UHGV virus genome: UHGV-0125336
Source of the DNA: a virus
Reading direction: 5' to 3' (one strand)
Length of the DNA stretch: 37,419 bases
A model generated the notes under the pieces. The model ran no database searches and was not told the origin of the DNA. It was given only the letters and a program-made list of their open reading frames with translations. The translations under genes were made by a program, and so were the position numbers. Shown in pieces: positions 1 to 37,318 of this stretch (within the stretch, counting starts at the first letter, position 1; each line of letters begins with the position of its first letter).

Positions 1-239
1 AAATCCTTTTATATCAAAAGATTAAACCACTATTATTTTCCTCAACAAGGATTTTTAACCCTTTTTCAGTCTCTGACAATCTAAGGCTCCTTTATCAACA
101 AACGCCCATTTGCAAACTGCTGTTTAATCTGAAAAAAAACATTAATAATCATACAGATAACAACATAACCATTTAGACGGGCAATACTGAAAAATTGTTA
201 TTCAGTATCGCCCTTTAAGCCGTTTCAGGCTATATAAAA

Positions 240-1244
240 TTAATCCCCCGTGGACACTGCGTGGACACTTACGCCACCTTTCAGCGGATTAAGGGCCACC
301 GCATCCTGCAGGTAATCCGGTGCAAAATGCGCATATGCCATTGTTTGCTGAATGGTTGCGTGACCAAGAATCTTCTGAAGCGCAATAATGTTTCCTCCGT
401 TCATCACAAAATGGCTGGCGAACGTATGCCGCAGCACATGTGCAGCCTGGCCTTTTGGTAAATCGGGCTTAACTCTTTTCAGCGCCAGGCAGAATTCCCG
501 GTACTTCACCTCAAACAAGCCGCCTGTTTCTCTGGTTTTGATCGCCTCACAAACTGCCTGCGAAATTGGCACTGTTCTCTTCCGGCCATTTTTGGTTTCA
601 AGAAACGTTACACGGTTATGAACTATCTGTTCACCACGAAGCTTACAAGCTTCACTCCAGCGCGCCCCTGTGCTTAAACACAAAAGCGCAACACGCCAGT
701 AGTCGCCCTCCAGTGTATCGAGCAATAGCGCCACTTCCTTCTGTGACAGGAACGCCATTTCTCGTGGAGATACATAAAGAATAGAAATTCCCCTTACTGG
801 ATGTTCTGCATCCCAAAGACCTATTTTTTTCAGCACGGTAAACATTCCGGATAACCGATTCATGTACCTGTTAGCAGATGACGGTTTCAATCCTTCAGCT
901 ATCTTTTGAGAACGCCACGCGATAATTTTCAGCTTATCAAGATCCACAGCCTGCATATCAGCGCCAAGCTCATTGATTATGTTGCGCAGTTGTTTTCGGT
1001 CTTCTTCCGCCTTACGCCTGTGCTGGCCGTGATACATCCACCACAACTCAAGCAAATCATTTAGCGTTCGACGATCACGGTAGCCCTGTATATATTCCCG
1101 CTTTTCAGCGTTCGCCATGATGTAGCGTTCAGTGGCCACCGCTACCGATTTTTTGTCAAATACCTTACGCACGCGCTTTCCCTTGCGTCCGTTCGGCCTG
1201 ATGTCCAGCAAATAACGACCATCTTCGAGCTTCTTAATCGACAT
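240..1244 (-). CDS. int: Tyrosine integrase, P2 Int-like (site-specific recombinase)
   Basis: Translation from ATG at 1244 (MSIKKLEDGRY...) matches P2 Int as recalled, including the C-terminal HxLRHTFASH...ILGH...YAHF catalytic region. GGAGGG RBS 8 nt upstream. The ORF-track start at 1259 is probably 5 codons too far upstream. Confidence 0.9.
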   Translation of the reverse strand: MSIKKLEDGRYLLDIRPNGRKGKRVRKVFDKKSVAVATERYIMANAEKREYIQGYRDRRTLNDLLELWWMYHGQHRRKAEEDRKQLRNIINELGADMQAVDLDKLKIIAWRSQKIAEGLKPSSANRYMNRLSGMFTVLKKIGLWDAEHPVRGISILYVSPREMAFLSQKEVALLLDTLEGDYWRVALLCLSTGARWSEACKLRGEQIVHNRVTFLETKNGRKRTVPISQAVCEAIKTRETGGLFEVKYREFCLALKRVKPDLPKGQAAHVLRHTFASHFVMNGGNIIALQKILGHATIQQTMAYAHFAPDYLQDAVALNPLKGGVSVHAVSTGD

Positions 1245-1340
1245 TACGAAGCCCTCCAATGAACCGCTCTACAATTTCTCCAGCCTCTTTCCAGCAATAA
1301 TCAGACCAGACAAAAAGCAGGTCTAACCAGTTTTCTGGCC

Positions 1341-4358: not shown

Positions 4359-4480
4359 GAAACCAGAACATGCACACACAAAAAAACCGCTTGCCATGCC
4401 GCAATCAGTCAGGTTACATTTCCGCTGCACCTCACAAAACGGGTGCCGGGTTTCGCAGCCTGCTGACTACACAAGCGCAC

Positions 4481-4502
4481 AACCGCGCCAGCGGTTTTTT
4501 TG
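4481..4502 (+). terminator. Candidate intrinsic terminator inside the early operon
   Basis: AACCGC-GCCA-GCGGTT hairpin followed by a T7 run, within the 320-bp non-coding gap 4359..4680. Confidence 0.4.
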
Positions 4503-4680
4503 TGCGTACTGTATTGCCACGTTTTTTTCGCGTCAGAATTATGGCGGGGCGTACGGGGCCGACTTCGGTCGGGCCGGGTTCTTGTGTAGCCGGTACTGCG
4601 AACCTCGTACGTCTCGCCACCCACAGTTTCGCAGCTCTGGATGGTGAGTTTTCACAACTTACTACACAAGGGGCCACACC

Positions 4681-5355: not shown

Positions 5356-8178
5356 ATGACGGCAGAGTACATCAGGGACTGGCAACAACCGCGCCACGCA
5401 GTGGGGCGTGAAGGAACGGGGATCCCCGCTCCTGAATCCGCGCTTTCCTCCTGGCTGGATGCCTACCGGGTAGAGAACGAGCACCGCCAGGAAATGGCTG
5501 ATGCGGCGTTCTCCGCAACGCTGCTGGGCAACCTGATTAATAAAAGCCTGGACGCACAGGAAAAACAGGACAAAACCATCACACTGGCAGGAGACGCCAG
5601 AAAACAGGCACGCGGCGCGGTGGATGAAGCCATGGCCTCGCTGCGCCTGCTGCCGTCCTATCTGCGCGATCCGCTTATTCGCCACCTCTCCTTCCTGCGC
5701 AAAAAACAGGAAGCCGATCGCCGGAAAGGCAAAAAGAGCTGGCAGGCTGAACACTACGCGCGCGGAACCCTGCGCAAAATATTCGAACGTCTGGATCGCA
5801 CTGACAGACGCTGGCTGACACCGGGTTATCGCTCCCTTGCCGGACGCGAACGCCTGGACGATTTGCTTTACCTGCCGCAGCTCAACAAACACCAGATACA
5901 GACGCTGGCCACCATGACGGCGGCGATGTTCAGCAGCACCTTCGAAAAACTCTGCGATGGCTTTGGCGCGACTGATGGCGAACTGACCATGGATGTAACG
6001 CTGAAGGCGTATCAGATGCTGGCCCGCATGGCGTTACACCTGCACGCCATGCCTCCACATTATGACGCACTGACAACAGACAAAGACCGGAGGAACGAAC
6101 CGGACACGGAGCTGCTGCCGGGCGCAATCCTCCGCCTGACCTGTGCGGAATGGTGGAAACGCAAACTGTGGCTGTTACGTTGCGAGTGGAGAGAAGAACA
6201 ACTCCGCGCCGCCTGTCTGGTTTCCAGAAAAACATCGCCCTATCTGAGCCAGGACGCGTTAAGCGAGTTTCGCGCACAGCGCGAGAAAACACGCGATTTC
6301 CTGAAAAGTTTCATGCTGGAAAATGAAGACGGGTTCACGATTGATCTCGAGACGGTGTATTACGCGGGAGTAAGTAACCCGGTTCACCGTAAGGCAGAAA
6401 TGATGGCCACCATGAAGGGACTGGAACTTCTGGCCGAAGCCCGTAGCGACAGAGCGGTGTTTCTGACCGTCACCTGCCCGTCAAAATACCACGCAACAAC
6501 GGAGAACGGTCATCCGAACCCCAAATGGAACGGGGCCACCATGCGCGACTCCAGCGATTACCTGGTTAACACGTTTTTTGCGGCAGTCCGCAAAAAACTG
6601 AACCGCGACGGCCTGCGCTGGTATGGCATCCGCACGGTGGAGCCTCACCATGACGGCACCGTGCACTGGCATATGATGGTCTTTGCTCATCCGGAAGAAA
6701 TCGACAGCATCGTGGCCATCACCCGCGATATTGCCATTCAGGAAGATCGTCACGAACTGGGCGATGATATTACTCCGCGCTTTAAGGCGGAGTATGTCGA
6801 CGGCTCAAAAGGCACACCAACCAGCTATATCGCGACCTACATCGGAAAAAACCTGGACAGCCGCGCCGTAGATGGCATCGACCCGAAAACGGGCAAGCCA
6901 CGCGTTGACCACGAAACCGGAAAATCAATGGCCGAGAGCGTGGAGCGCGCCATTGGCTGGGCGCGTCTTCATCGGGTCCGCCAGTTCCAGTTCTTTGGCA
7001 TCCCCTCCCGTCAGGTATGGCGTGAACTCCGCCGCCTTGCCAGCCAGATGGCACGCAACCCGGAAGGCCCGCAACGGCTGAAGGATGATGCAATGGATGC
7101 GGTACTCGCTGCCGCTGATGCCGGGTGTTTTGCCTCCTACATTGAAAAACAGGGTGGCGTGCTTGTTCCACGCAAGGACTACCTGATTCGCACCGCCTAC
7201 GACCTCGCAGATGAGCTGAACGATTACGGCGAACAGAGCGTACAGATTTACGGGATCTGGTCACCACTCATCGGGGAATCCTCCCGTGTGTGCACGCATC
7301 CGGATAACTGGAAGCTGGTAAGACGTAAACCGGAAGCGGAAGACAGCGCCCGCGAAAATGGTTTTGACCTTCAGGGCGGCCCTGCCGCCCCTTGGACTCG
7401 TGGCAATAACTGTCCCCGTGTACAGGAAACGGACAACAACGGGACAGAACAGCCGGAAGAACGGCCAGCACCGTGGCCGCAGCTTCCTGACGGCGTTGAC
7501 GTGAACGAATGGATGCGCTCACTGAAACGGCACGAACGCCGGGCGCTGATGCGTTCGCTTCGTGACAAACAGGCAAAAAACAGCAGTGATGAAATGCAGA
7601 GCTGGACACAGAGCCGCAAACAGCAGCGGCCTTTGCCTGATAACCACGAATTACTCGCTAAAGAATGGCGGGAATCTGCCGAATCTCTCGGCCTGCATAT
7701 CGGTGAACAGCAGATGCAGCACCTGTTACGGGGCGGCAGTCTGTACGTTGACGGCAGCATCATTGCACCGCAGGGATTTGAAATTGTACGCAAACCGGAT
7801 ACCCGACCGGACAGCCGAATCACGCAGCTCTGGCAGCGCCTGAGCCGTAACCACGGCGTAAGCAGTACGGAGATCCGCCATAACCCGGTCGCCAGCTATC
7901 TGGAACAGCTGAGGGCATCAGACCCCGAAGCCGCCGCACGCCTGGCATCCACACTTCAGCAAGACCAGAACACCATGAAAACACCCGTTACCGTGCTTTC
8001 TGACATGCTGCGCGCCATCCGCGACGCAGAGCACGCACAGAGAATCAGTGAAACCACTGAACGCGCCCGCCGCAAAGCAGACCTGCTGCGGGGTGGCCTG
8101 ACCAGTGGAAACAAAAAACAGACAGAAACGGGATTCACAAATCCCGTAAATGAGCAAAAAACGCGCCGCGATATATGA
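5356..8178 (+). CDS. A: Replication initiation endonuclease, P2 gpA-like (rolling-circle)
   Basis: 940-aa ORF in the A position. Contains an HHDGTVHWHMMVF metal-binding HxH-type motif and downstream tyrosines typical of HUH rolling-circle initiators. Confidence 0.9.
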   Translation: MTAEYIRDWQQPRHAVGREGTGIPAPESALSSWLDAYRVENEHRQEMADAAFSATLLGNLINKSLDAQEKQDKTITLAGDARKQARGAVDEAMASLRLLPSYLRDPLIRHLSFLRKKQEADRRKGKKSWQAEHYARGTLRKIFERLDRTDRRWLTPGYRSLAGRERLDDLLYLPQLNKHQIQTLATMTAAMFSSTFEKLCDGFGATDGELTMDVTLKAYQMLARMALHLHAMPPHYDALTTDKDRRNEPDTELLPGAILRLTCAEWWKRKLWLLRCEWREEQLRAACLVSRKTSPYLSQDALSEFRAQREKTRDFLKSFMLENEDGFTIDLETVYYAGVSNPVHRKAEMMATMKGLELLAEARSDRAVFLTVTCPSKYHATTENGHPNPKWNGATMRDSSDYLVNTFFAAVRKKLNRDGLRWYGIRTVEPHHDGTVHWHMMVFAHPEEIDSIVAITRDIAIQEDRHELGDDITPRFKAEYVDGSKGTPTSYIATYIGKNLDSRAVDGIDPKTGKPRVDHETGKSMAESVERAIGWARLHRVRQFQFFGIPSRQVWRELRRLASQMARNPEGPQRLKDDAMDAVLAAADAGCFASYIEKQGGVLVPRKDYLIRTAYDLADELNDYGEQSVQIYGIWSPLIGESSRVCTHPDNWKLVRRKPEAEDSARENGFDLQGGPAAPWTRGNNCPRVQETDNNGTEQPEERPAPWPQLPDGVDVNEWMRSLKRHERRALMRSLRDKQAKNSSDEMQSWTQSRKQQRPLPDNHELLAKEWRESAESLGLHIGEQQMQHLLRGGSLYVDGSIIAPQGFEIVRKPDTRPDSRITQLWQRLSRNHGVSSTEIRHNPVASYLEQLRASDPEAAARLASTLQQDQNTMKTPVTVLSDMLRAIRDAEHAQRISETTERARRKADLLRGGLTSGNKKQTETGFTNPVNEQKTRRDI

Positions 8179-8226
8179 AGCGCGCATAAAACAGGCAAAA
8201 ACGGGATTTCAGAATCCCGTAAACGA
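8115..8226. repeat. Two 39-bp direct repeats, each with a 7-bp inverted repeat (ACGGGAT-N6-ATCCCGT); candidate ParR-binding centromere/operator
   Basis: Copy 1 at 8115..8153 lies inside the A 3' end. Copy 2 at 8188..8226 lies between A and the parM-like gene. Palindrome centres are 73 bp apart (about 7 helical turns). Confidence 0.45.
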
Positions 8227-8254
8227 TTAATTAATCAACATAAGGAAAAGCGAC

Positions 8255-9214
8255 ATGAAAATTTGTATCGATGACGGCTCCACCAACATCAAGCTGGCAT
8301 GGACTGAGAACGGCGAACGCCGCAACGCCATCAGCCCGAACAGCTTCAAGTCGGAATGGTCTGCGCCGTTCGGTGGCACGCAGCCCGCGAACTACATGCT
8401 TGATGGCGTGCGCTATGGTTTTGATCCGGTCAGCGATCGCTTTGTCCAGACGACTGACACGCAATACCAGTACAGCGATGTGAATGTCATTGCCATTCAT
8501 CACGCGCTGGTCAAATCAGGCATCACGCCACAGGAGGTGGATGTGGTTGTCACCCTGCCACTGAGCGAGTATTTCGACACAAACGCACAGCCGGACATAG
8601 CCAACATCAACCGCAAAAAAGCGAACGTTATGCGCCCGGTGGAGTACCAGAACGGCGAAGCATTCACTATCCGTAACGTACGGGTTATGCCTGAATCCAT
8701 TCCGGCTGGCTTTAAGGCACTGGCTGACATGAGTCCGTTTGAATCCCTGCTGATTGTGGATTTAGGCGGAACCACGCTGGATGTGGCAAAGGTTCAGGGA
8801 CAACTGGCAGGTATCAGCCAGGTGTTTTGCGATCCACACGTAGGCGTTTCCCTGATGGCCGATGCCGTACTGTCGGTGATGGCCACTAACGGTATGCGTA
8901 CCAGTCACCACATCGCCAATACCATTATCGAACATCGCCATGATGAAGCCTGGCTGCGCCAGCACATCCACAATGACGCGCATTACGCCAGCCTGATGGC
9001 GGTTATTCGTGAAAAGGAAGAAACACTGAAACAACGCGTGATCCGCGCGCTGGCGGGTTTTTCGGGTTACGGGCGGGTGATGGTTGTCGGTGGCGGGGCA
9101 GAGATTGTGGCACCCGCTATCCGCGAAGCCTGCGGAGTTAATGCGACTTTCATCGCGGACGGGGTGCCACAGTTTGCTCTGGTTAATGGGCTGTACGCAA
9201 TGGGCAAGGAGTAA
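8255..9214 (+). CDS. parM: ParM/StbA-like actin-type segregation ATPase
   Basis: Collinear similarity to plasmid R1 ParM as recalled: N-terminal IDDGSTNIKL, YSDVNV..HHAL, KKAN, VMPESIPAG, DLGGTTLD, GVSL, VGGGAE, LVNG. Confidence 0.8.
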   Translation: MKICIDDGSTNIKLAWTENGERRNAISPNSFKSEWSAPFGGTQPANYMLDGVRYGFDPVSDRFVQTTDTQYQYSDVNVIAIHHALVKSGITPQEVDVVVTLPLSEYFDTNAQPDIANINRKKANVMRPVEYQNGEAFTIRNVRVMPESIPAGFKALADMSPFESLLIVDLGGTTLDVAKVQGQLAGISQVFCDPHVGVSLMADAVLSVMATNGMRTSHHIANTIIEHRHDEAWLRQHIHNDAHYASLMAVIREKEETLKQRVIRALAGFSGYGRVMVVGGGAEIVAPAIREACGVNATFIADGVPQFALVNGLYAMGKE

Positions 9215-9218
9215 ACCA

Positions 9219-9530
9219 ATGACGACACCAACCAGACGGATAAGTTTCTATCTGAAGCCCGCCGCCGTCAAGAACGAAGGCGAAGCATGCGCCTGGCTGG
9301 ACAGCCTTACACCAGAAGCCCGCAAAAGTGGTCAACGCGTGGCTTTTCTGGCCGGGCTGGCACTACTGAAAATGAATCCGGCAGAGGCTTACCGACTGGC
9401 TGCATGGGCTGATGATGAGGCGTTATCAATGACACAAACCAGGACAGAACGCCCCGCGTCACAGCCAGTATCAGCCGCACAGATAACCAGTCAGATGGCC
9501 GGAAATATCCGGGCGTTATTTCCCGAATAA
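9219..9530 (+). CDS. parR: ParR-like centromere-binding adaptor
   Basis: ISFYLKPAAV...LDSLTPEARKSGQRVAFLAGLALL...IRALFPE parallels recalled R1 ParR (IAFKLNPDV...LDSIPQGERSRLNRAALTAGLALY...LRSLFPK). AAGGAG RBS, 5 bp after parM. Confidence 0.6.
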   Translation: MTTPTRRISFYLKPAAVKNEGEACAWLDSLTPEARKSGQRVAFLAGLALLKMNPAEAYRLAAWADDEALSMTQTRTERPASQPVSAAQITSQMAGNIRALFPE

Positions 9531-9535
9531 CACAA

Positions 9536-9559
9536 CATCAGGGCGCATCCGCCCTGATG
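9536..9559. promoter_or_regulatory. Perfect 10-bp stem-loop between parR-like and the next gene
   Basis: CATCAGGGCG-CATC-CGCCCTGATG, 6 nt after the parR stop. No T-run follows, so it is a candidate operator or RNA structure, not a clean terminator. Confidence 0.35.
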
Positions 9560-9593
9560 ACTTTAACCCGGGAGCATAAACAAGGGGGACACA

Positions 9594-9926
9594 ATGCAAC
9601 ACATTGACAGAGAAAAAGCGCAGCGACTGATTGAGCGGATGGAAGCGCTGGCGAAAGAAGAAAATGTCAACATCCAAAAAATAGCTGAATGTGGCCAGAT
9701 AGTTCTTCGTCGTGAAAAAGACCTCAAACAACTGATGTCTGGCGAAACCAGCAAAACATGGACTTCAGGCGAGAAGACGGTTTATTGCAGCTTCTGCAAT
9801 AAATCCCAGTACGAAGTCACAAAGGTGATTGCCGGACCGTCTGTTTACATCTGCAATGAGTGCGTGGATTTGTGCAATGAAATTATCAGGAAAGAAGTGA
9901 CAGACAAAAAGGAAAAAAACGCATGA
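9594..9926 (+). CDS. Small protein with a C-terminal ClpX N-terminal zinc-binding-domain (C4) homolog
   Basis: The C-terminal 40 aa ([40 protein letters not shown]) is near-identical in pattern to the E. coli ClpX ZBD as recalled ([40 protein letters not shown]). No AAA+ domain follows. N-terminal 60 aa are helical and unrelated. Confidence 0.7.
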
Positions 9927-10237
9927 ACAGAAAACAGAAACAAGAGTTGAAATACTTCTTACGTAAAGAAATTGCCAGGCTTGAAGATGCAGAGTCACAA
10001 TCATCAGAAATTCCGTTCGGAATGGATATCAACGACGCCCGTATGCTCCAGGCATACCGCATAGCTCAGGCTGCACTACAGGCAAAACCGTCAGATGGAC
10101 TGGTTAGAGCAGTACATTTCTATGAACAGGTAAAGCGTGAGAATCCGCCAGTCGAAACCGGAGCATGGAAAGACGCTGTTGACTGGGTGCTCAAAGAGGC
10201 TTGCCAGTCTGTAAACATTGGCATCAAAGGAGAGTGA
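9923..10237 (+). CDS. Hypothetical protein
   Basis: 104-aa ORF. Start overlaps the upstream stop. Ends ...IGIKGE. Confidence 0.5.
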
Positions 10238-10239
10238 GA

Positions 10240-10731
10240 ATGCAAATTTCACCGGTTACTCTTCGTGTTGCGAAGGCGTTTATATCCAGACATCACCGAC
10301 ACAATAAACCCCCGGTGGGGCATAAATTCAGCATTGGTCTGAGAAATGATGCCGGAGAATTGATAGGTGTGGCGACAGCCGGTAGACCTGTTGCACGACA
10401 TTTGGACGATGGATTAACGCTTGAAGTAAATCGCACATGTACCACAGGAGAACGCAACGCTAACAGCGCGCTTTATGGTGCTGTCTGGCGGGCAGCAAAG
10501 GCTATGGGTTATCAACGTTGTATTACGTACACCCAGGCAGATGAATCAGGAGCATCTCTCCGCGCAGCTGGTTTTGTTCGTGTGAAAGAGCTTCCTCCAA
10601 GAAAAAGCTGGGCGGAATCAAGCGTCGCCCTGCGGAGTAAACGCGATCCGGTCGGAAACGGTGGTGTTCCTCGTGTGCTCTGGGAAATCAGGAGAATGAG
10701 TACCACTGGCATTCGCATCAAAGGAGAGTGA
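10240..10731 (+). CDS. Hypothetical protein
   Basis: 163 aa from ATG 10240, with AAGGAG RBS. Ends ...GIRIKGE. No motif identified with confidence. Confidence 0.5.
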   Translation: MQISPVTLRVAKAFISRHHRHNKPPVGHKFSIGLRNDAGELIGVATAGRPVARHLDDGLTLEVNRTCTTGERNANSALYGAVWRAAKAMGYQRCITYTQADESGASLRAAGFVRVKELPPRKSWAESSVALRSKRDPVGNGGVPRVLWEIRRMSTTGIRIKGE

Positions 10732-10732
10732 T

Positions 10733-10996
10733 ATGGCAACTTTGACAAAAAAAGAACAAGCATGGTTGAGCGAATTACAGGACGTTCTTGATCGCTGTCC
10801 ATCACCGAAAAAAATTGGTTTTTACACCATTGGCGATAAAAGCATTTACCTGTATGACCTGCGCCGCATGGATGAAATCATGGAGGCTCTTGATAATCGT
10901 TCGTCAATGGATTGGTGTGTTGCTGTCCATGATATGAATGCAGGGTTTGATGAAAAGATTTTGTTCCCCTCATCAGTTGAAAGCACAGCAGGATAA
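10733..10996 (+). CDS. Hypothetical protein
   Basis: 87-aa ORF starting 2 nt after the previous stop, behind the same duplicated junction sequence. Confidence 0.5.
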   Translation: MATLTKKEQAWLSELQDVLDRCPSPKKIGFYTIGDKSIYLYDLRRMDEIMEALDNRSSMDWCVAVHDMNAGFDEKILFPSSVESTAG

Positions 10997-11040
10997 GGAC
11001 CCAGCAAATATACACAACCTATAAAACACTAAAGCGCCTC

Positions 11041-11065
11041 AGGGGCGCTTTTTGTTTGCACAAAA
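11041..11065 (+). terminator. Intrinsic terminator closing the accessory operon
   Basis: AGCGCC-TCAG-GGGCGCT hairpin followed by TTTTTGTTT. Confidence 0.55.
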
Positions 11066-11507: not shown

Positions 11508-12554
11508 TCAGGATGTGGGCTGGGTGTCTAACAGTGCGTAAGGGTTAAAGCGGATCACCTCTTCGCCAAGCCAGTCATTGATGTGCTTCATGGCCTCCAT
11601 GACGGGCATCAGCTCGTTAATTGCGTAAACCCGCGCGGCCTTCTCCACATCACCAAACGCACTTTTTTCGCCCGGCATCGCCCCCATCAGTTGCGGCGGA
11701 ACGCGGTGCGCAGCCAGCACATCATCACGGGATGCCGCCTTAACATTCATGAACTCATCCTTTGCGGTGATCTGCTGGAACGGCAAAATTTGCACCCCCT
11801 CTTTGCCCCCGTTAGGCGCATGAATGAGCACGTTTTTAAACGCACCACCACCACGTGCCCCCTGTAGCGTTTCTTTCAGGGAGTCCATGCTTTCGCGGTT
11901 TACCTGCGCTGCACCGATGTAGATGATGCACCCGGCGTGGGATCCATTGTCGTAATACAGTTTTCTGAACATGTCCGCCGAATGAGACAGGCTGGCCGAG
12001 AGTAATGCGCCGAGATATTCCGGCATGCCGTAGATTTCCTGGTTAATGTCAGGATTCATCAGGTGGCACACTTTGCCAGGGCGAAACTGAAACGCGTCCT
12101 TGCCATCCTGCACATACCACCATGATTCAAGATCGCTTCCGCGTCGCATGTATTTCGCCAGGGCGTGCCGTAATTTAAGCGGTTCGCCGAGCATATTGCT
12201 TCGAAGCTCAAGGAATGCGTTACCGAACACAAACCAGTCCAGCGCCAGCGCCGAGAAATCCTGCCGGGAAAGCAACGGGTGCGGGATGTAGCAACCGAGT
12301 AATACATTGCGCTTAAAGTAAAGCGCAGACTGATGCCAGGACGTTTGCCGGGCAGCTCTTGCCAGACCGTACCAGTCCACCGGGGTTTCATACCACCGCC
12401 CGTTATCAGCACAGTACATATTGTCCAGCAGGTCATGCCCGGTCAGGCGATAAGGACCATCAAATGTGAATGCACTGAGCGATGATTCTTTCCTGAGCGC
12501 ATCAGCGAGATCAATGCGTGAACTCATGCGCACTTTTTTATTTTTTCTGCTCAT
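11508..12554 (-). CDS. Q: Portal protein, P2 gpQ-like
   Basis: 348-aa ORF with P2-typical position and orientation (Q and P leftward, divergent from O). Confidence 0.85.
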   Translation of the reverse strand: MSRKNKKVRMSSRIDLADALRKESSLSAFTFDGPYRLTGHDLLDNMYCADNGRWYETPVDWYGLARAARQTSWHQSALYFKRNVLLGCYIPHPLLSRQDFSALALDWFVFGNAFLELRSNMLGEPLKLRHALAKYMRRGSDLESWWYVQDGKDAFQFRPGKVCHLMNPDINQEIYGMPEYLGALLSASLSHSADMFRKLYYDNGSHAGCIIYIGAAQVNRESMDSLKETLQGARGGGAFKNVLIHAPNGGKEGVQILPFQQITAKDEFMNVKAASRDDVLAAHRVPPQLMGAMPGEKSAFGDVEKAARVYAINELMPVMEAMKHINDWLGEEVIRFNPYALLDTQPTS

Positions 12555-34190: not shown

Positions 34191-34331
34191 ATGTCGCAAA
34201 AATCGCTTACGGCCATCACGTTCTGCGTGACGGCAATCCTCATCATCTGGATGCTGCACGGTTCGCTGTGCGAAATACGGATGAGCTTCTGGGGAGCGGA
34301 GTTTGCGGCGTTCTTACAGTGTAAGCAGTAA
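34191..34331 (+). CDS. hok: Hok/Gef-family type I toxin (46 aa)
   Basis: MSQKSLTAITFCVTAILIIWMLHGSLCEIRMSFWGAEFAAFLQCKQ: one TM helix, then the SLCEI motif and an AAFL.CK C-terminus, closest to HokA as recalled. SD AAGGAG (34177-34182) sits in a hairpin. A GNRA-loop hairpin follows the stop (34341-34362). Confidence 0.7.
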   Translation: MSQKSLTAITFCVTAILIIWMLHGSLCEIRMSFWGAEFAAFLQCKQ

Positions 34332-34740: not shown

Positions 34741-35574
34741 ATGGTCATGAATAATAAGCTAAAGGTAATTGAGTTAAATAGTCTTGATCTGTTTCGTAAA
34801 GAATTACTAACTACTATAAAGCCAGAGAAAGTAGAGAAATTACTTAGATGGTATCTTCAATCATATGGCGGTGTTAATTTCAAGTTCGGTTATGACAGAC
34901 CAATTTTTAGAGCGCGAAAGTGCCCAAATGAATGCGGATATAATAACATCAGTGAGATATATCCCCCTCCACCAGAAAAATGTAAAATAGGCCGAATGAA
35001 TGATGATGGACAAGCTATCTTCTATGGCGCTTATAGTATCGGAACAGCTTTAGCCGAAATTAATGCAAAAGAAGGGGATTATGTTCACATAGCTCACTTT
35101 AAGATGCCGGAAAATTCAGAGTCTGGAATGCGATGTTTTGCTATCGGTGAGGTCTTTAATGTGTATCACGGTGTAAATACAATTTCAATTGAAGTGTTTA
35201 ATGAAATTCGCGACATCATTAGCAGAATTGGTAAGGACGACATCCGAGCTTTGCTATCATATTTGTATATGGATGCCCTTTCTGCTGAGTTGCTTAATAG
35301 TATCAATGCCCATGAGGTAAATTATATTTACTCAAGAATTTTTTGCCGTCTTCTTCTTGATAAATACCCTGATGTTGATGGTCTTATTTATCCTAGCGCT
35401 AAAATAAAAGGGGCCTCAAATATCGCTTTGCGCACAGAAACAGTTAAATCGAGAATGCATTTAGTTGCTAATCTTGTGTTTAAAGTAAATAAAATTTATC
35501 CATATGGAATAGTAGATTTCAGTATAGTAAAACAAGCCAAAGGACATACATCAGATGGGCGCATCGTTTGGTGA
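34741..35574 (+). CDS. RES-domain-like protein (putative NAD+-targeting toxin fold) with an N-terminal extension
   Basis: KIGRMNDDGQAIFYGAYSIGTALAEI fits the RES pattern (G-R-W/M-N..G...Y.A.S...A..E), and DGLIYPSAKIKGASNIAL fits the second conserved block. No adjacent Xre/antitoxin-like ORF. AT-rich. Confidence 0.5.
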   Translation: MVMNNKLKVIELNSLDLFRKELLTTIKPEKVEKLLRWYLQSYGGVNFKFGYDRPIFRARKCPNECGYNNISEIYPPPPEKCKIGRMNDDGQAIFYGAYSIGTALAEINAKEGDYVHIAHFKMPENSESGMRCFAIGEVFNVYHGVNTISIEVFNEIRDIISRIGKDDIRALLSYLYMDALSAELLNSINAHEVNYIYSRIFCRLLLDKYPDVDGLIYPSAKIKGASNIALRTETVKSRMHLVANLVFKVNKIYPYGIVDFSIVKQAKGHTSDGRIVW

Positions 35575-36424: not shown

Positions 36425-37318
36425 ATGAAAAATATGATTTTTTCTATAGGTGCATTATTTATATCAATTAGTGTACTGCCTGTTCACGCAGCAACTGAAC
36501 ATAAGAATTTCAATGCAGTGCTCCAGTGCCGAGCGATAGAAAACAATAAAGACAGACTTTCTTGTTACGATAAGTCAATACAACCGACTCGAACGAAAGT
36601 TGCTGAAAAATTTGAAAGCAGGGATCAATGCCCTGATGAGAAAGATGATGACAAACGTTTATCTTGTTATGATCGTTTTTTTTCTCCAACATTTACTCCA
36701 TCTGTAAACTCAAAATCTAAAACGGAAAAGCTAGTAACAACAGAGGCTCAGCAACCAAATCTTTCTGAAATATCTAAATGCCGAGCAGAAAATGATAAAG
36801 AAGCCAGACTAAACTGCTACGATAAACTATTCCCACAGAATGAAGCTGTTCAATCTGAATCACAATTAGAGAAAGCCACAGATGCAGGAAAATGGCACAC
36901 GTCCATTACTACATCGCCAATTGATGATTCGAAAAATGTAATTTTATCGTTAGAAAGTGATGATTATATCAGAACTCCATTTGGAGAAGCTGTTACTCCC
37001 ACTCTGTTTATAGCTTGCCGAGAAAAGAAAACCGAAGTATTTCTTAGTTGGGATGTATATTTAGGCCTTGAACAAACCAGCATGCTGTATCGTCTTGATA
37101 AACAGAAAGCAGTTGAAAGAAACTGGCTAATATCTACAGATACAAAGGCTGTTTTTTATAAAGGTAATGATATTGATTTCATAAGAAAACTTGCCAACTC
37201 ACATAAAATGTACACAAAAATAACCCCCTATAATGAAAGCCCTGTAAGTGCAACTTTCAATTTAAGCGGCCTGTCAAATGCACTAAAACCGCTTCAAGAT
37301 GCTTGTAACTGGAAATAG
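36425..37318 (+). CDS. Secreted protein with three 20-aa Cys-pair repeats, unknown function
   Basis: Signal-peptide-like N-terminus (MKNMIFSIGALFISISVLPVHAA). Repeats LQCRAIENNKDRLSCYDK, DQCPDEKDDDKRLSCYDR, SKCRAENDKEARLNCYDK. Starts 4 nt after the upstream gene. Confidence 0.6.
   Translation: MKNMIFSIGALFISISVLPVHAATEHKNFNAVLQCRAIENNKDRLSCYDKSIQPTRTKVAEKFESRDQCPDEKDDDKRLSCYDRFFSPTFTPSVNSKSKTEKLVTTEAQQPNLSEISKCRAENDKEARLNCYDKLFPQNEAVQSESQLEKATDAGKWHTSITTSPIDDSKNVILSLESDDYIRTPFGEAVTPTLFIACREKKTEVFLSWDVYLGLEQTSMLYRLDKQKAVERNWLISTDTKAVFYKGNDIDFIRKLANSHKMYTKITPYNESPVSATFNLSGLSNALKPLQDACNWK

What the first reader, a model, noticed from the sequence alone, without database searches (positions are those of the whole stretch)
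8115..9530. Actin-type ParM/ParR segregation pair with a centromere-like site inside an integrating P2-like prophage
P2-type phages integrate and are not expected to need active partition. The ParM-like protein keeps the actin-fold phosphate motifs (DDGSTNIK, DLGGTTLD) and is followed by a ParR-like adaptor. Upstream are two 39-bp repeats, each with an ACGGGAT-N6-ATCCCGT palindrome, centred 73 bp apart, the first inside the A 3' end. This suggests an episomal phase, post-induction segregation of replicating genomes, or incompatibility-based exclusion of ParMR plasmids.
Basis: partly seen in the sequence, partly recalled or inferred. Interest (0 to 1): 0.7.

Follow-up and report, generated by a model that had tools for sequence, protein, structure and literature searches.

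The report
R1-type ParMRC cassette in P2-like prophage
An integrated P2-like (P88/Xuanwuvirus) E. coli prophage carries an intact plasmid-R1-type actin segregation cassette (ParM, ParR and a likely centromere) just after its replication gene; databases already annotate the genes, but what the cassette does for an integrating phage has not been tested.

Summary
ORF 8255-9214 is a full-length ParM, 47% identical to R1/R100 ParM with the ATPase motifs intact. ORF 9219-9530 is a ParR/StbB adaptor: Pfam PF10784, best solved relative pB171 ParR. Two 42-nt repeats, each holding ACGGGAT-N6-ATCCCGT, are centred 73 bp apart upstream of parM; the first lies inside the 3' end of gene A.

The window is an integrated P88-like prophage with integrase, Cox, gpA and portal genes. 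The cassette is not a local oddity:
- It occurs in about 24% of complete E. coli genomes, almost always on the chromosome.
- It accompanies about 97% of P88-type A genes.
- parM is under strong purifying selection.
- Phage ParMs from E. coli, Hafnia, Plesiomonas, Serratia and Enterobacter form one clade, always between gpA and the portal gene. Plasmid and ICE ParMs lie outside it.
- The two-site geometry (72-73 bp) recurs in Hafnia and Plesiomonas.

RefSeq and PHROGs already annotate the genes, but I found no functional study.

My best reading is inferred, not shown. The cassette is transcribed with the early replication genes and moves excised or replicating phage circles, like AlpAC of prophage CGP3 or srpMRC of SXT/R391 ICEs. 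A stable plasmid lifestyle and exclusion of R1-type plasmids are disfavoured.

The parts
5356..8178 (+). Gene A (P2-type rolling-circle replication endonuclease, 940 aa). The cassette lies directly downstream, and the 3' end of A contains repeat copy 1.
   Evidence: Pfam Phage_GPA 9e-130. No + strand terminator-like site lies between A and parM.
8105..8235 (.). Putative centromere/operator region (parC-like): two palindromic boxes plus A-tracts phased at about 10-11 bp.
   Evidence: Repeats and palindromes. AAA periodicity in the 9.8-11.5 bp band is 8.3 against a shuffle mean of 3.4, p=0.008. The same two-box geometry is found in Hafnia and Plesiomonas loci.
8112..8153 (.). Repeat copy 1 with palindrome ACGGGATTCACAAATCCCGT (8128-8147), inside the A coding sequence.
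   Evidence: The GGGA/TCCC cores are conserved and the spacer varies among 85 E. coli-type loci.
8185..8226 (.). Repeat copy 2 with palindrome ACGGGATTTCAGAATCCCGT (8201-8220), centred 44.5 nt before the parM ATG.
8255..9214 (+). parM: actin-fold ATPase, 319 aa.
   Evidence: StbA_N plus ParM C-terminal domain. phrog_691 'partition protein' 4.1e-91. PDB 1mwk (R1 ParM) E 2.5e-93 over the full length. 47% identical to R100 ParM. Nucleotide diversity at 3rd codon positions is 0.054 against 0.0053 at 1st+2nd positions.
9219..9530 (+). parR: adaptor, 103 aa. It has an N-terminal ribbon-helix-helix-type domain (RRISFYLKP plus helices, residues 1-65), a hypervariable linker (residues 66-95) and an invariant C-terminal NI(R/Q)xLFPE motif.
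   Evidence: PF10784 2.5e-24. phrog_2515 4.4e-58. A profile of homologues hits PDB 2jd3 (pB171 ParR/StbB) best, E 0.0024. 34% identical to R100 ParR over the N-terminal domain, E 2e-08. Alignments.
9536..9559 (.). 10-bp GC-rich hairpin just after parR. It marks the end of the block conserved among P88-like prophages; variable cargo follows.
   Evidence: dG -12.7 kcal/mol, z -8.1. BLAST coverage of related prophages stops at about 9530-9560.

Best explanation
This is a genuine type II (ParMRC, plasmid-R1 class) partition cassette that has become a core module of one lineage of P2-like temperate phages. Shown by computation: an intact ParM ATPase, a ParR adaptor with the R1-like three-part layout, and a repeated palindromic site just upstream of parM. 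Inferred mechanism: ParR dimers bind the two GGGAT-N6-ATCCC boxes, which lie seven helical turns apart on phased A-tract DNA, and form a segrosome. The conserved ParR C-terminal NIxxLFPE peptide captures ParM filament ends, and ATP-driven ParM polymerisation pushes parC-bearing DNA molecules apart. The cassette sits directly after gene A on the same strand, with no terminator in between. It is therefore most likely transcribed with the early replication genes, after infection or derepression, rather than in the quiescent lysogen. Its substrate would then be the excised or replicating circular phage genome. Dispersing or partitioning those circles could make replication efficient and could ensure that both daughter cells keep a copy until integration or lysis. 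This would parallel AlpAC of prophage CGP3 and srpMRC of SXT/R391 ICEs. My confidence that it is a ParMRC cassette is about 0.95. My confidence in the proposed timing and substrate is about 0.5.
For: Identity. The phosphate-1 motif (IDDGSTNIK), MPESIPAG, phosphate-2 motif (DLGGTTLD) and GGGAE motif all align with R100 ParM. Selection and linkage: parM is 319 aa and intact in all 85 related loci; diversity at 3rd codon positions is ten times that at 1st+2nd positions; parM is present at >=80% coverage in 1279 genomes against 1321 for the P88-type A gene, out of 5426. Deep conservation: ParMs 54-63% identical from Hafnia, Plesiomonas, Serratia and Enterobacter all lie in the order gpA-ParM-ParR-cargo-portal. 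They form one clade apart from plasmid and ICE ParMs. Cis site: two boxes 73, 72 and 73 bp apart in E. coli, Plesiomonas and Hafnia; only the GGG-N10-CCC symmetry is retained, which is what a protein operator would keep and an RNA or DNA hairpin would not. Serratia and Enterobacter, whose ParR strand is RKISFYL rather than RRISFYL, share a different three-half-site layout. Two loci carry the same substitution in both boxes. Operon context: a Pe-like promoter lies at 1646-1675, the genes run co-directionally, and the first strong + strand terminator after A is at 11031-11051. Precedents: PMC4446434 and PMC4489591.
Against: There are no binding, filament, expression or phenotype data. No consensus sigma-70 promoter was found in 7900-9700, so autoregulation from within parC, as in R1, is unsupported. 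Read-through from A is inferred only from the lack of a terminator. Within E. coli the parC region is no less diverse than synonymous sites (pi 0.04-0.07), and box variants do not covary with ParR alleles. There are only four half-sites, against ten iterons in R1. P2-type replication yields many circles, and the benefit of a pairwise pushing machine for them is not obvious. The AlphaFold model of the ParR monomer had low confidence (pLDDT 57.6), so the RHH fold is not confirmed structurally.
Confidence: 0.55

Rival explanations
1. Facultative plasmid prophage: ParMRC maintains the phage as a heritable low-copy episome, either as a phage-plasmid or as a carrier state, for example in hosts that lack attB.
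For: One stand-alone 34,461-bp circular 'plasmid' record, pZ1323PEC0009-2, is a complete P88-like genome. The same prophage also encodes a Hok/Gef toxin, the other R1 stability function. A P2-like plasmid prophage exists: KS14 (PMC3091744). Phage-plasmid D6 carries a ParM 48% identical.
Against: There are 1454 chromosomal placements against 2 on plasmids in 5426 complete E. coli genomes. None of 319 genomes with this end-type shows a joined attP junction. An intact tyrosine integrase and Cox are present. The only replication function is the gpA rolling-circle endonuclease in the repressible early operon, and no plasmid-type Rep is present. KS14 uses RepB plus ParA instead. The single circular record could be an excised form captured by the assembler.
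Confidence: 0.15
2. Competition device: prophage ParR or parC causes incompatibility with, or exclusion of, ParMRC plasmids (the R1/IncF family) or superinfecting related phages.
For: The cassette lies between A and the portal gene, where the cargo downstream of parR differs between related prophages. The C-terminal ParM-binding motif is similar in phage and R100 ParR: N-[AI]-x-x-L. The reverse complement of the R100 iterons (GGGTTTTGTTT) loosely resembles the phage half-site GGGATTTGTGA.
Against: No PADLOC defence model matches. R100 parC consists of tandem A/C-rich 11-mers, not palindromes. The ParR DNA-binding domains are only 34% identical. The cassette belongs to the conserved block, not to the variable cargo. 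A full ATPase kept under purifying selection is more than titration would need.
Confidence: 0.08
3. Vestige or regulator: the cassette is an inherited plasmid remnant with no segregation role, or ParR acts only as a transcriptional repressor or roadblock at the A-parM junction.
For: No promoter or phenotype is known. The parC region is not measurably constrained within E. coli. A degraded prophage in EDL933 still carries the cassette.
Against: ParM is full length in 85 of 85 loci, with a tenfold deficit of non-synonymous-site diversity. The clade is monophyletic and syntenic down to 54% identity across genera. The ParR C-terminal ParM-binding motif is invariant while the linker evolves freely.
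Confidence: 0.07
4. The two palindromes are not a centromere. They are hairpins (minus-strand terminators or mRNA processing or stability elements), or sites for another protein.
For: In E. coli each forms an 8-bp stem (dG -8.1 and -8.2 kcal/mol, z -5.7 and -3.9) and is followed by a T-run on the minus strand, so it is scored as terminator-like.
Against: In Hafnia and Plesiomonas only 3-5 of the 8 pairs survive and the T-runs are absent, yet the 72-73 bp two-site geometry and the GGG-N10-CCC symmetry persist. No minus-strand gene reads into them. Their position directly upstream of parM is the canonical parC position, as in R100.
Confidence: 0.1
5. The cassette acts in the integrated state: a chromosome-borne parC plus ParMR influences segregation of the host chromosome region, or otherwise benefits the host.
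For: It is very prevalent in E. coli chromosomes. It is retained in a decayed prophage, EDL933.
Against: Its position at the end of the repressible early operon suggests it is silent in lysogens. It is tightly linked to the phage A gene rather than occurring alone. No precedent is known to me.
Confidence: 0.05

Closest known systems
ParMRC (parA/stb locus) of plasmids R1/R100 (type II partition)
   Same: Homologous ParM: 47% identity over the full length, same motifs. Homologous ParR in the same Pfam family, with an aligned RHH region and C-terminal motif. The gene order is cis-site, then parM, then parR.
   Different: It resides in an integrating phage, not a plasmid. The cis site is two inverted-repeat boxes 73 bp apart (four half-sites) instead of 5+5 tandem 11-bp iterons. 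No recognisable promoter lies between the boxes. It forms its own clade.
AlpAC/alpS of Corynebacterium glutamicum prophage CGP3 (PMC4446434, PMC5539076)
   Same: An actin-like protein plus a DNA-binding adaptor in an integrated prophage. The adaptor binds repeats upstream of the operon. The system is early-induced and acts on the excised circular phage DNA.
   Different: The host is a Gram-positive actinobacterium. Homology of AlpC to this ParM was not tested here. The AlpAC function is experimentally shown; here it is only inferred.
srpMRC of SXT/R391 integrative conjugative elements (PMC4489591)
   Same: A type II partition system on an element that normally sits in the chromosome. It is expressed only together with excision and replication functions, it stabilises the transient excised form, and it co-occurs with a toxin-antitoxin system.
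   Different: The element is an ICE, not a phage. SrpM is only distantly related to R1 ParM, whereas this ParM is a close R1 relative. SrpR has no recognisable ParR domain.
Plasmid prophages with partition systems (P1, and D6 with StbA/ParM; KS14, a P2-like phage with ParA)
   Same: Tailed temperate phages that encode plasmid partition genes. D6 ParM is 48% identical. KS14 shows that a P2-like virion module can go with a plasmid lifestyle.
   Different: Those phages have plasmid replicons and are found as episomes. This lineage has an integrase, gpA rolling-circle replication and almost exclusively chromosomal copies.

Membership tests
Type II (ParMRC) partition system, R1 class | Actin-fold ATPase ParM with phosphate-1, phosphate-2 and adenosine motifs | tested here: met
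   StbA_N 3.6e-82 and ParM C-terminal domain 1.3e-68. PDB 1mwk E 2.5e-93 over the full length. Motifs align with R100 ParM at 47% identity.
Type II (ParMRC) partition system, R1 class | Small ParR adaptor encoded immediately downstream of parM and belonging to the ParR/StbB family | tested here: met
   PF10784 2.5e-24. 34% identical to R100 ParR, E 2e-08. The best PDB profile hit is pB171 ParR, 2jd3, E 0.0024.
Type II (ParMRC) partition system, R1 class | ParR N-terminal ribbon-helix-helix fold | tested here: inconclusive
   The sequence aligns to the RHH domain of 2jd3. The AlphaFold monomer model had pLDDT 57.6 and predicted no strand. RHH proteins are obligate dimers.
Type II (ParMRC) partition system, R1 class | ParR C-terminal peptide that binds ParM | tested here: inconclusive
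   An invariant NI(R/Q)xLFPE motif follows a hypervariable linker and aligns with the R100 C-terminus NAMKLI-N. The interaction itself is not testable here.
Type II (ParMRC) partition system, R1 class | Cis-acting centromere of repeated ParR sites directly upstream of parM | tested here: met
   This covers the presence of repeats only: two 42-nt repeats with palindromes, unique in the window. The geometry is conserved in Hafnia and Plesiomonas. ParR binding is not testable with these tools.
Type II (ParMRC) partition system, R1 class | Promoter embedded in parC and autoregulated by ParR | tested here: inconclusive
   No sigma-70 consensus match in 7900-9700. A conserved ATTAATCAA after box 2 has unknown meaning.
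Type II (ParMRC) partition system, R1 class | ATP-dependent dynamic filaments and stabilisation of a low-copy replicon | not testable with these tools
   Needs biochemistry, imaging and plasmid-loss assays.
Phage-plasmids (P1/D6/N15/SSU5-like plasmid prophages) | Maintained extrachromosomally with a plasmid-type replicon | tested here: not met
   1454 chromosomal against 2 plasmid placements. 0 of 319 circular junctions. Integrase and Cox are present. Replication is by gpA. Only one stand-alone circular record exists in PLSDB.
Known anti-phage defence systems (PADLOC-DB) | A match of ParM, ParR or their neighbours to a defence-system protein model | tested here: not met
   No hit at E<=0.01 for six proteins encoded in 8255-10996.
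Prophage actin system AlpAC (CGP3) | Sequence homology to AlpC/AlpA, early induction, and a requirement for replication of the excised circle | not tested
   The AlpC and AlpA sequences were not compared. The analogy rests on the architecture described in PMC4446434.

The most novel reading that the evidence does not exclude
The cassette gives P88-like P2 phages a heritable extrachromosomal phase: an actively partitioned circle, guarded by Hok, that persists for generations before it integrates or lyses. These very common E. coli prophages would then be facultative phage-plasmids. Alternatively, the integrated centromere is active and alters segregation of the host chromosome.
Probability: 0.1. 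Interest if true: 0.75.

Novelty: new member of a known kind. Interest (0 to 1): 0.38.

Why it matters
About a quarter of complete E. coli genomes, including O157:H7 EDL933, carry this cassette, and I found no test of what it does. If it organises or partitions excised P2-type genomes, actin-driven DNA positioning, so far shown for one actinobacterial prophage and one ICE family, would extend to a major group of enterobacterial phages. That would bear on lysogenisation efficiency, prophage stability and induction yield. P88, PhiR44_2 and phiSM are cultivable, and R1 ParMRC assays are standard, so the question can be tested directly.

Tried and rejected
- AlphaFold of the ParR monomer from a 17-sequence alignment gave pLDDT 57.6. 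This was too poor for a fold search, so I used a profile search of the PDB instead.
- The single genome-contig scan with ParM returned only 3 near-identical loci.
- The IMG/VR scan with a ParM alignment returned 80 loci that were all 98-99% identical. They served for population statistics but not for diversity. Diversity came from the look-up of encoding contigs.
- I looked for covariation between box variants and ParR alleles within E. coli and found none.
- I tested whether the parC region is less diverse than its surroundings. It is not: pi is 0.04-0.07.
- The promoter scan found nothing in 7900-9700.
- The terminator reading of the palindromes was rejected because the stems and T-runs are not conserved across genera.
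- The defence-system reading was rejected on the lack of PADLOC hits.
- The plasmid lifestyle was rejected on the placement counts and the attP-junction search.
- Literature searches for functional work on ParM in P2-like, P88 or Xuanwuvirus phages found annotations only.
- CP025923 and CP025874, which looked like separate replicons, are linear 'phage' records and say nothing about an episomal state.

Full report
**1. What is in the sequence.**
The window is an integrated P2-like prophage.
- It encodes a tyrosine integrase (240-1259, minus strand), a C-type HTH repressor (1341-1715), Cox (1775-2062), a 940-aa gpA replication endonuclease (5356-8178) and a portal protein (11508-12554, minus strand).
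- Bases 8050-9600 are 100% identical to Escherichia phage PhiR44_2 and 98% identical to phage P88 (Xuanwuvirus, Peduoviridae).
- Window bases 1-55 recur immediately after the window end in many chromosomes, as expected of an att core.

**2.
- ORF 8255-9214 (319 aa) matches Pfam StbA_N (3.6e-82) and the ParM C-terminal domain (1.3e-68). ORF 9219-9530 (103 aa) matches Plasmid_stab_B, PF10784 (2.5e-24).
- PHROGs files both ORFs under 'partition protein'.
- The first ORF aligns over its full length with crystallised R1 ParM (1mwk, E 2.5e-93). It is 47% identical to R100 ParM, and IDDGSTNIK, MPESIPAG, DLGGTTLD and GGGAE are all conserved.
- The second ORF is 34% identical to R100 ParR over the N-terminal 56 residues. 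A profile of its homologues finds pB171 ParR/StbB (2jd3) as the best solved relative (E 0.0024).
- Alignments of ParR homologues show the classical three-part ParR layout: a conserved N-terminal domain (RRISFYLKP plus helices), a hypervariable linker, and an invariant C-terminal NI(R/Q)xLFPE that aligns with the R100 C-terminus.
- Upstream, two 42-nt repeats (8112-8153 and 8185-8226) each contain ACGGGAT-N6-ATCCCGT. These are the only two occurrences in the window, and their centres are 73 bp apart. The first lies inside gene A.
- The region also has AAA tracts phased at about 10-11 bp (p=0.008 against shuffles).

**3. It is a conserved phage module, not an accident.**
- In 5426 complete E. 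coli genomes the locus is present in 1308, with 1454 placements on chromosomes and 2 on plasmids.
- parM is covered at >=80% in 1279 genomes, against 1321 for the P88-type A gene.
- In 85 related loci parM is always 319 codons long. Nucleotide diversity is 0.054 at third codon positions and 0.0053 at first and second positions, which indicates strong purifying selection.
- ParM homologues fall from >=91% identity (E. coli clade) to 62-63% (Hafnia, Plesiomonas), 58% (Serratia) and 54% (Enterobacter). In every one of these the gene order is gpA, (small ORFs), ParM, ParR, cargo, portal/terminase.
- Homologues at <=53% identity lie next to Rep3, ParA/Sop or Tra genes, that is, on plasmids or ICEs.
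- A neighbour-joining tree places all the P2-phage ParMs in one clade, separate from R100 and the other plasmid proteins.
- Among 50,697 phage records, only Xuanwuvirus-type phages and the plasmid prophage D6 (48% identity) encode such a ParM.

**4. The cis site.**
- Plesiomonas and Hafnia loci also have two boxes, 72 and 73 bp apart, with the second box about 45-50 nt before the parM ATG. Only a GGG-N10-CCC symmetry survives there, 3-5 of the 8 stem pairs.
- Geometry and half-site cores are kept while the stem decays. This argues for a protein-binding operator and against a hairpin or terminator, even though the E. coli versions fold well and score as minus-strand terminators.
- Serratia and Enterobacter, whose ParR strand differs (RKISFYL), share a different layout of three GGGAAC-like half-sites with conserved spacings of 56 and 32 bp.
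- Within E. coli the GGGA/TCC cores are conserved and the spacers vary. Two loci show the same substitution in both boxes.
- However, box variants do not covary with ParR alleles, and the region as a whole is as diverse as synonymous sites.
- The R100 parC iterons are tandem A/C-rich 11-mers and look different.
- ParR binding therefore remains an inference.

**5. Expression context.**
- No sigma-70 consensus promoter was found in 7900-9700, and there is no + strand terminator between A and parM.
- A Pe-like promoter lies at 1646-1675. From there the genes run co-directionally, and the first strong + strand terminator after A is at 11031-11051.
- A 10-bp hairpin at 9536-9559 coincides with the end of the block conserved among related prophages; variable cargo follows it.
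- The simplest reading is that parMR forms the tail of the early replication transcription unit.

**6. Lifestyle.**
- A stable plasmid state is not supported. Placement is almost exclusively chromosomal. None of 319 genomes shows the joined attP junction. The integrase and Cox are intact. There is no plasmid-type replicon.
- PLSDB holds one stand-alone 34.5-kb circular copy that still carries the integrase. It cannot be distinguished from an excised form.
- No PADLOC defence model matches the cassette or its neighbours.

**7. Most likely mechanism and comparison with known systems.**
- The cassette is a member of the R1-class type II partition family by sequence and architecture.
- What it works like is best matched by two documented cases of actin-type partition on integrating elements. 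In AlpAC/alpS of prophage CGP3, the adaptor binds upstream repeats, the genes are induced early, and they are needed for efficient replication of the excised circle (PMC4446434). srpMRC of SXT/R391 ICEs is expressed only with the excision functions and stabilises the transient excised form (PMC4489591).
- I therefore propose that ParR loads on the two boxes and ParM filaments move excised or replicating phage circles after infection or induction.
- This is an inference, with confidence about 0.5. Identity as a ParMRC cassette has confidence about 0.95.

**8. Novelty.**
- The genes are already annotated as ParM and partition proteins by PGAP, RefSeq (P88) and PHROGs.
- The phiSM paper lists the protein only as a 'fitness' ORF.
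- Searches of the paper library found no functional study in P2-like phages.
- The finding is therefore a new member of a known kind, with an open and testable biological question. It is not a new type of system.

Noticed in passing
window 34191-34331 (+): A 46-aa Hok/Gef-family toxin ORF (PF01848, E 4.1e-07, above the Pfam cut-off). The prophage therefore carries homologues of both classical R1 stability functions, ParMRC (parA) and hok (parB). No Sok or hok RNA family reached the Rfam gathering score.
   Followed up: partly
window 4427-4501 and 4537-4624 (+): Rfam matches to isrK (64 bits) and C4 antisense RNA (83 bits), just upstream of the ORFs that precede gene A. Related loci annotate a 'derepression protein' there. 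This looks like a P1/P7-type antisense immunity or antirepressor module in a P2-like phage.
   Followed up: no
window 9273-9500 (parR linker); loci L003 and L016-L095: ParR is far more variable than ParM within E. coli: 50-100% identity against >=91%. Allele classes of 103 and 104 aa are separated by a recombination breakpoint at about residue 18. The variation is concentrated in the linker, while the N-terminal domain and the C-terminal motif stay fixed.
   Followed up: partly
window 9594-10996 (+): Cargo downstream of parR: a protein that contains only a ClpX-type C4 zinc finger (9594-9926), an XF1762-family/Mom-like protein (10240-10731) and two proteins of unknown function. This stretch differs between related prophages.
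   Followed up: no
window 34741-35574 and 36425-37318 (+): A RES-domain protein (possibly a toxin) and a VasI/TagO-like type VI secretion-associated protein, near the right prophage end.
   Followed up: no
L003 (E. coli O157:H7 EDL933, NZ_CP120944.1 2055810-2065033): A decayed P2-like prophage has an IS3 remnant directly after parR and a frameshifted tape-measure gene, yet it keeps gpA, parM and parR intact.
   Followed up: partly
window 1-55 and the sequence following 37419: The first 55 nt of the window are contiguous with the window end in chromosomal copies (query coverage 1-655 of the joined-ends query). This is consistent with a direct-repeat att core of about 55 bp.
   Followed up: partly
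L007 (Vagococcus sp. WN89Y contig NZ_JBQPOM010000071.1): A genome assembly labelled as a Gram-positive organism holds a ParM 97% identical to the E. coli prophage protein on a 226-kb contig. Assembly contamination is the likely cause.
   Followed up: no
window 11031-11051: A strong bidirectional terminator-like hairpin lies between the rightward early/cargo genes and the leftward portal gene.
   Followed up: no
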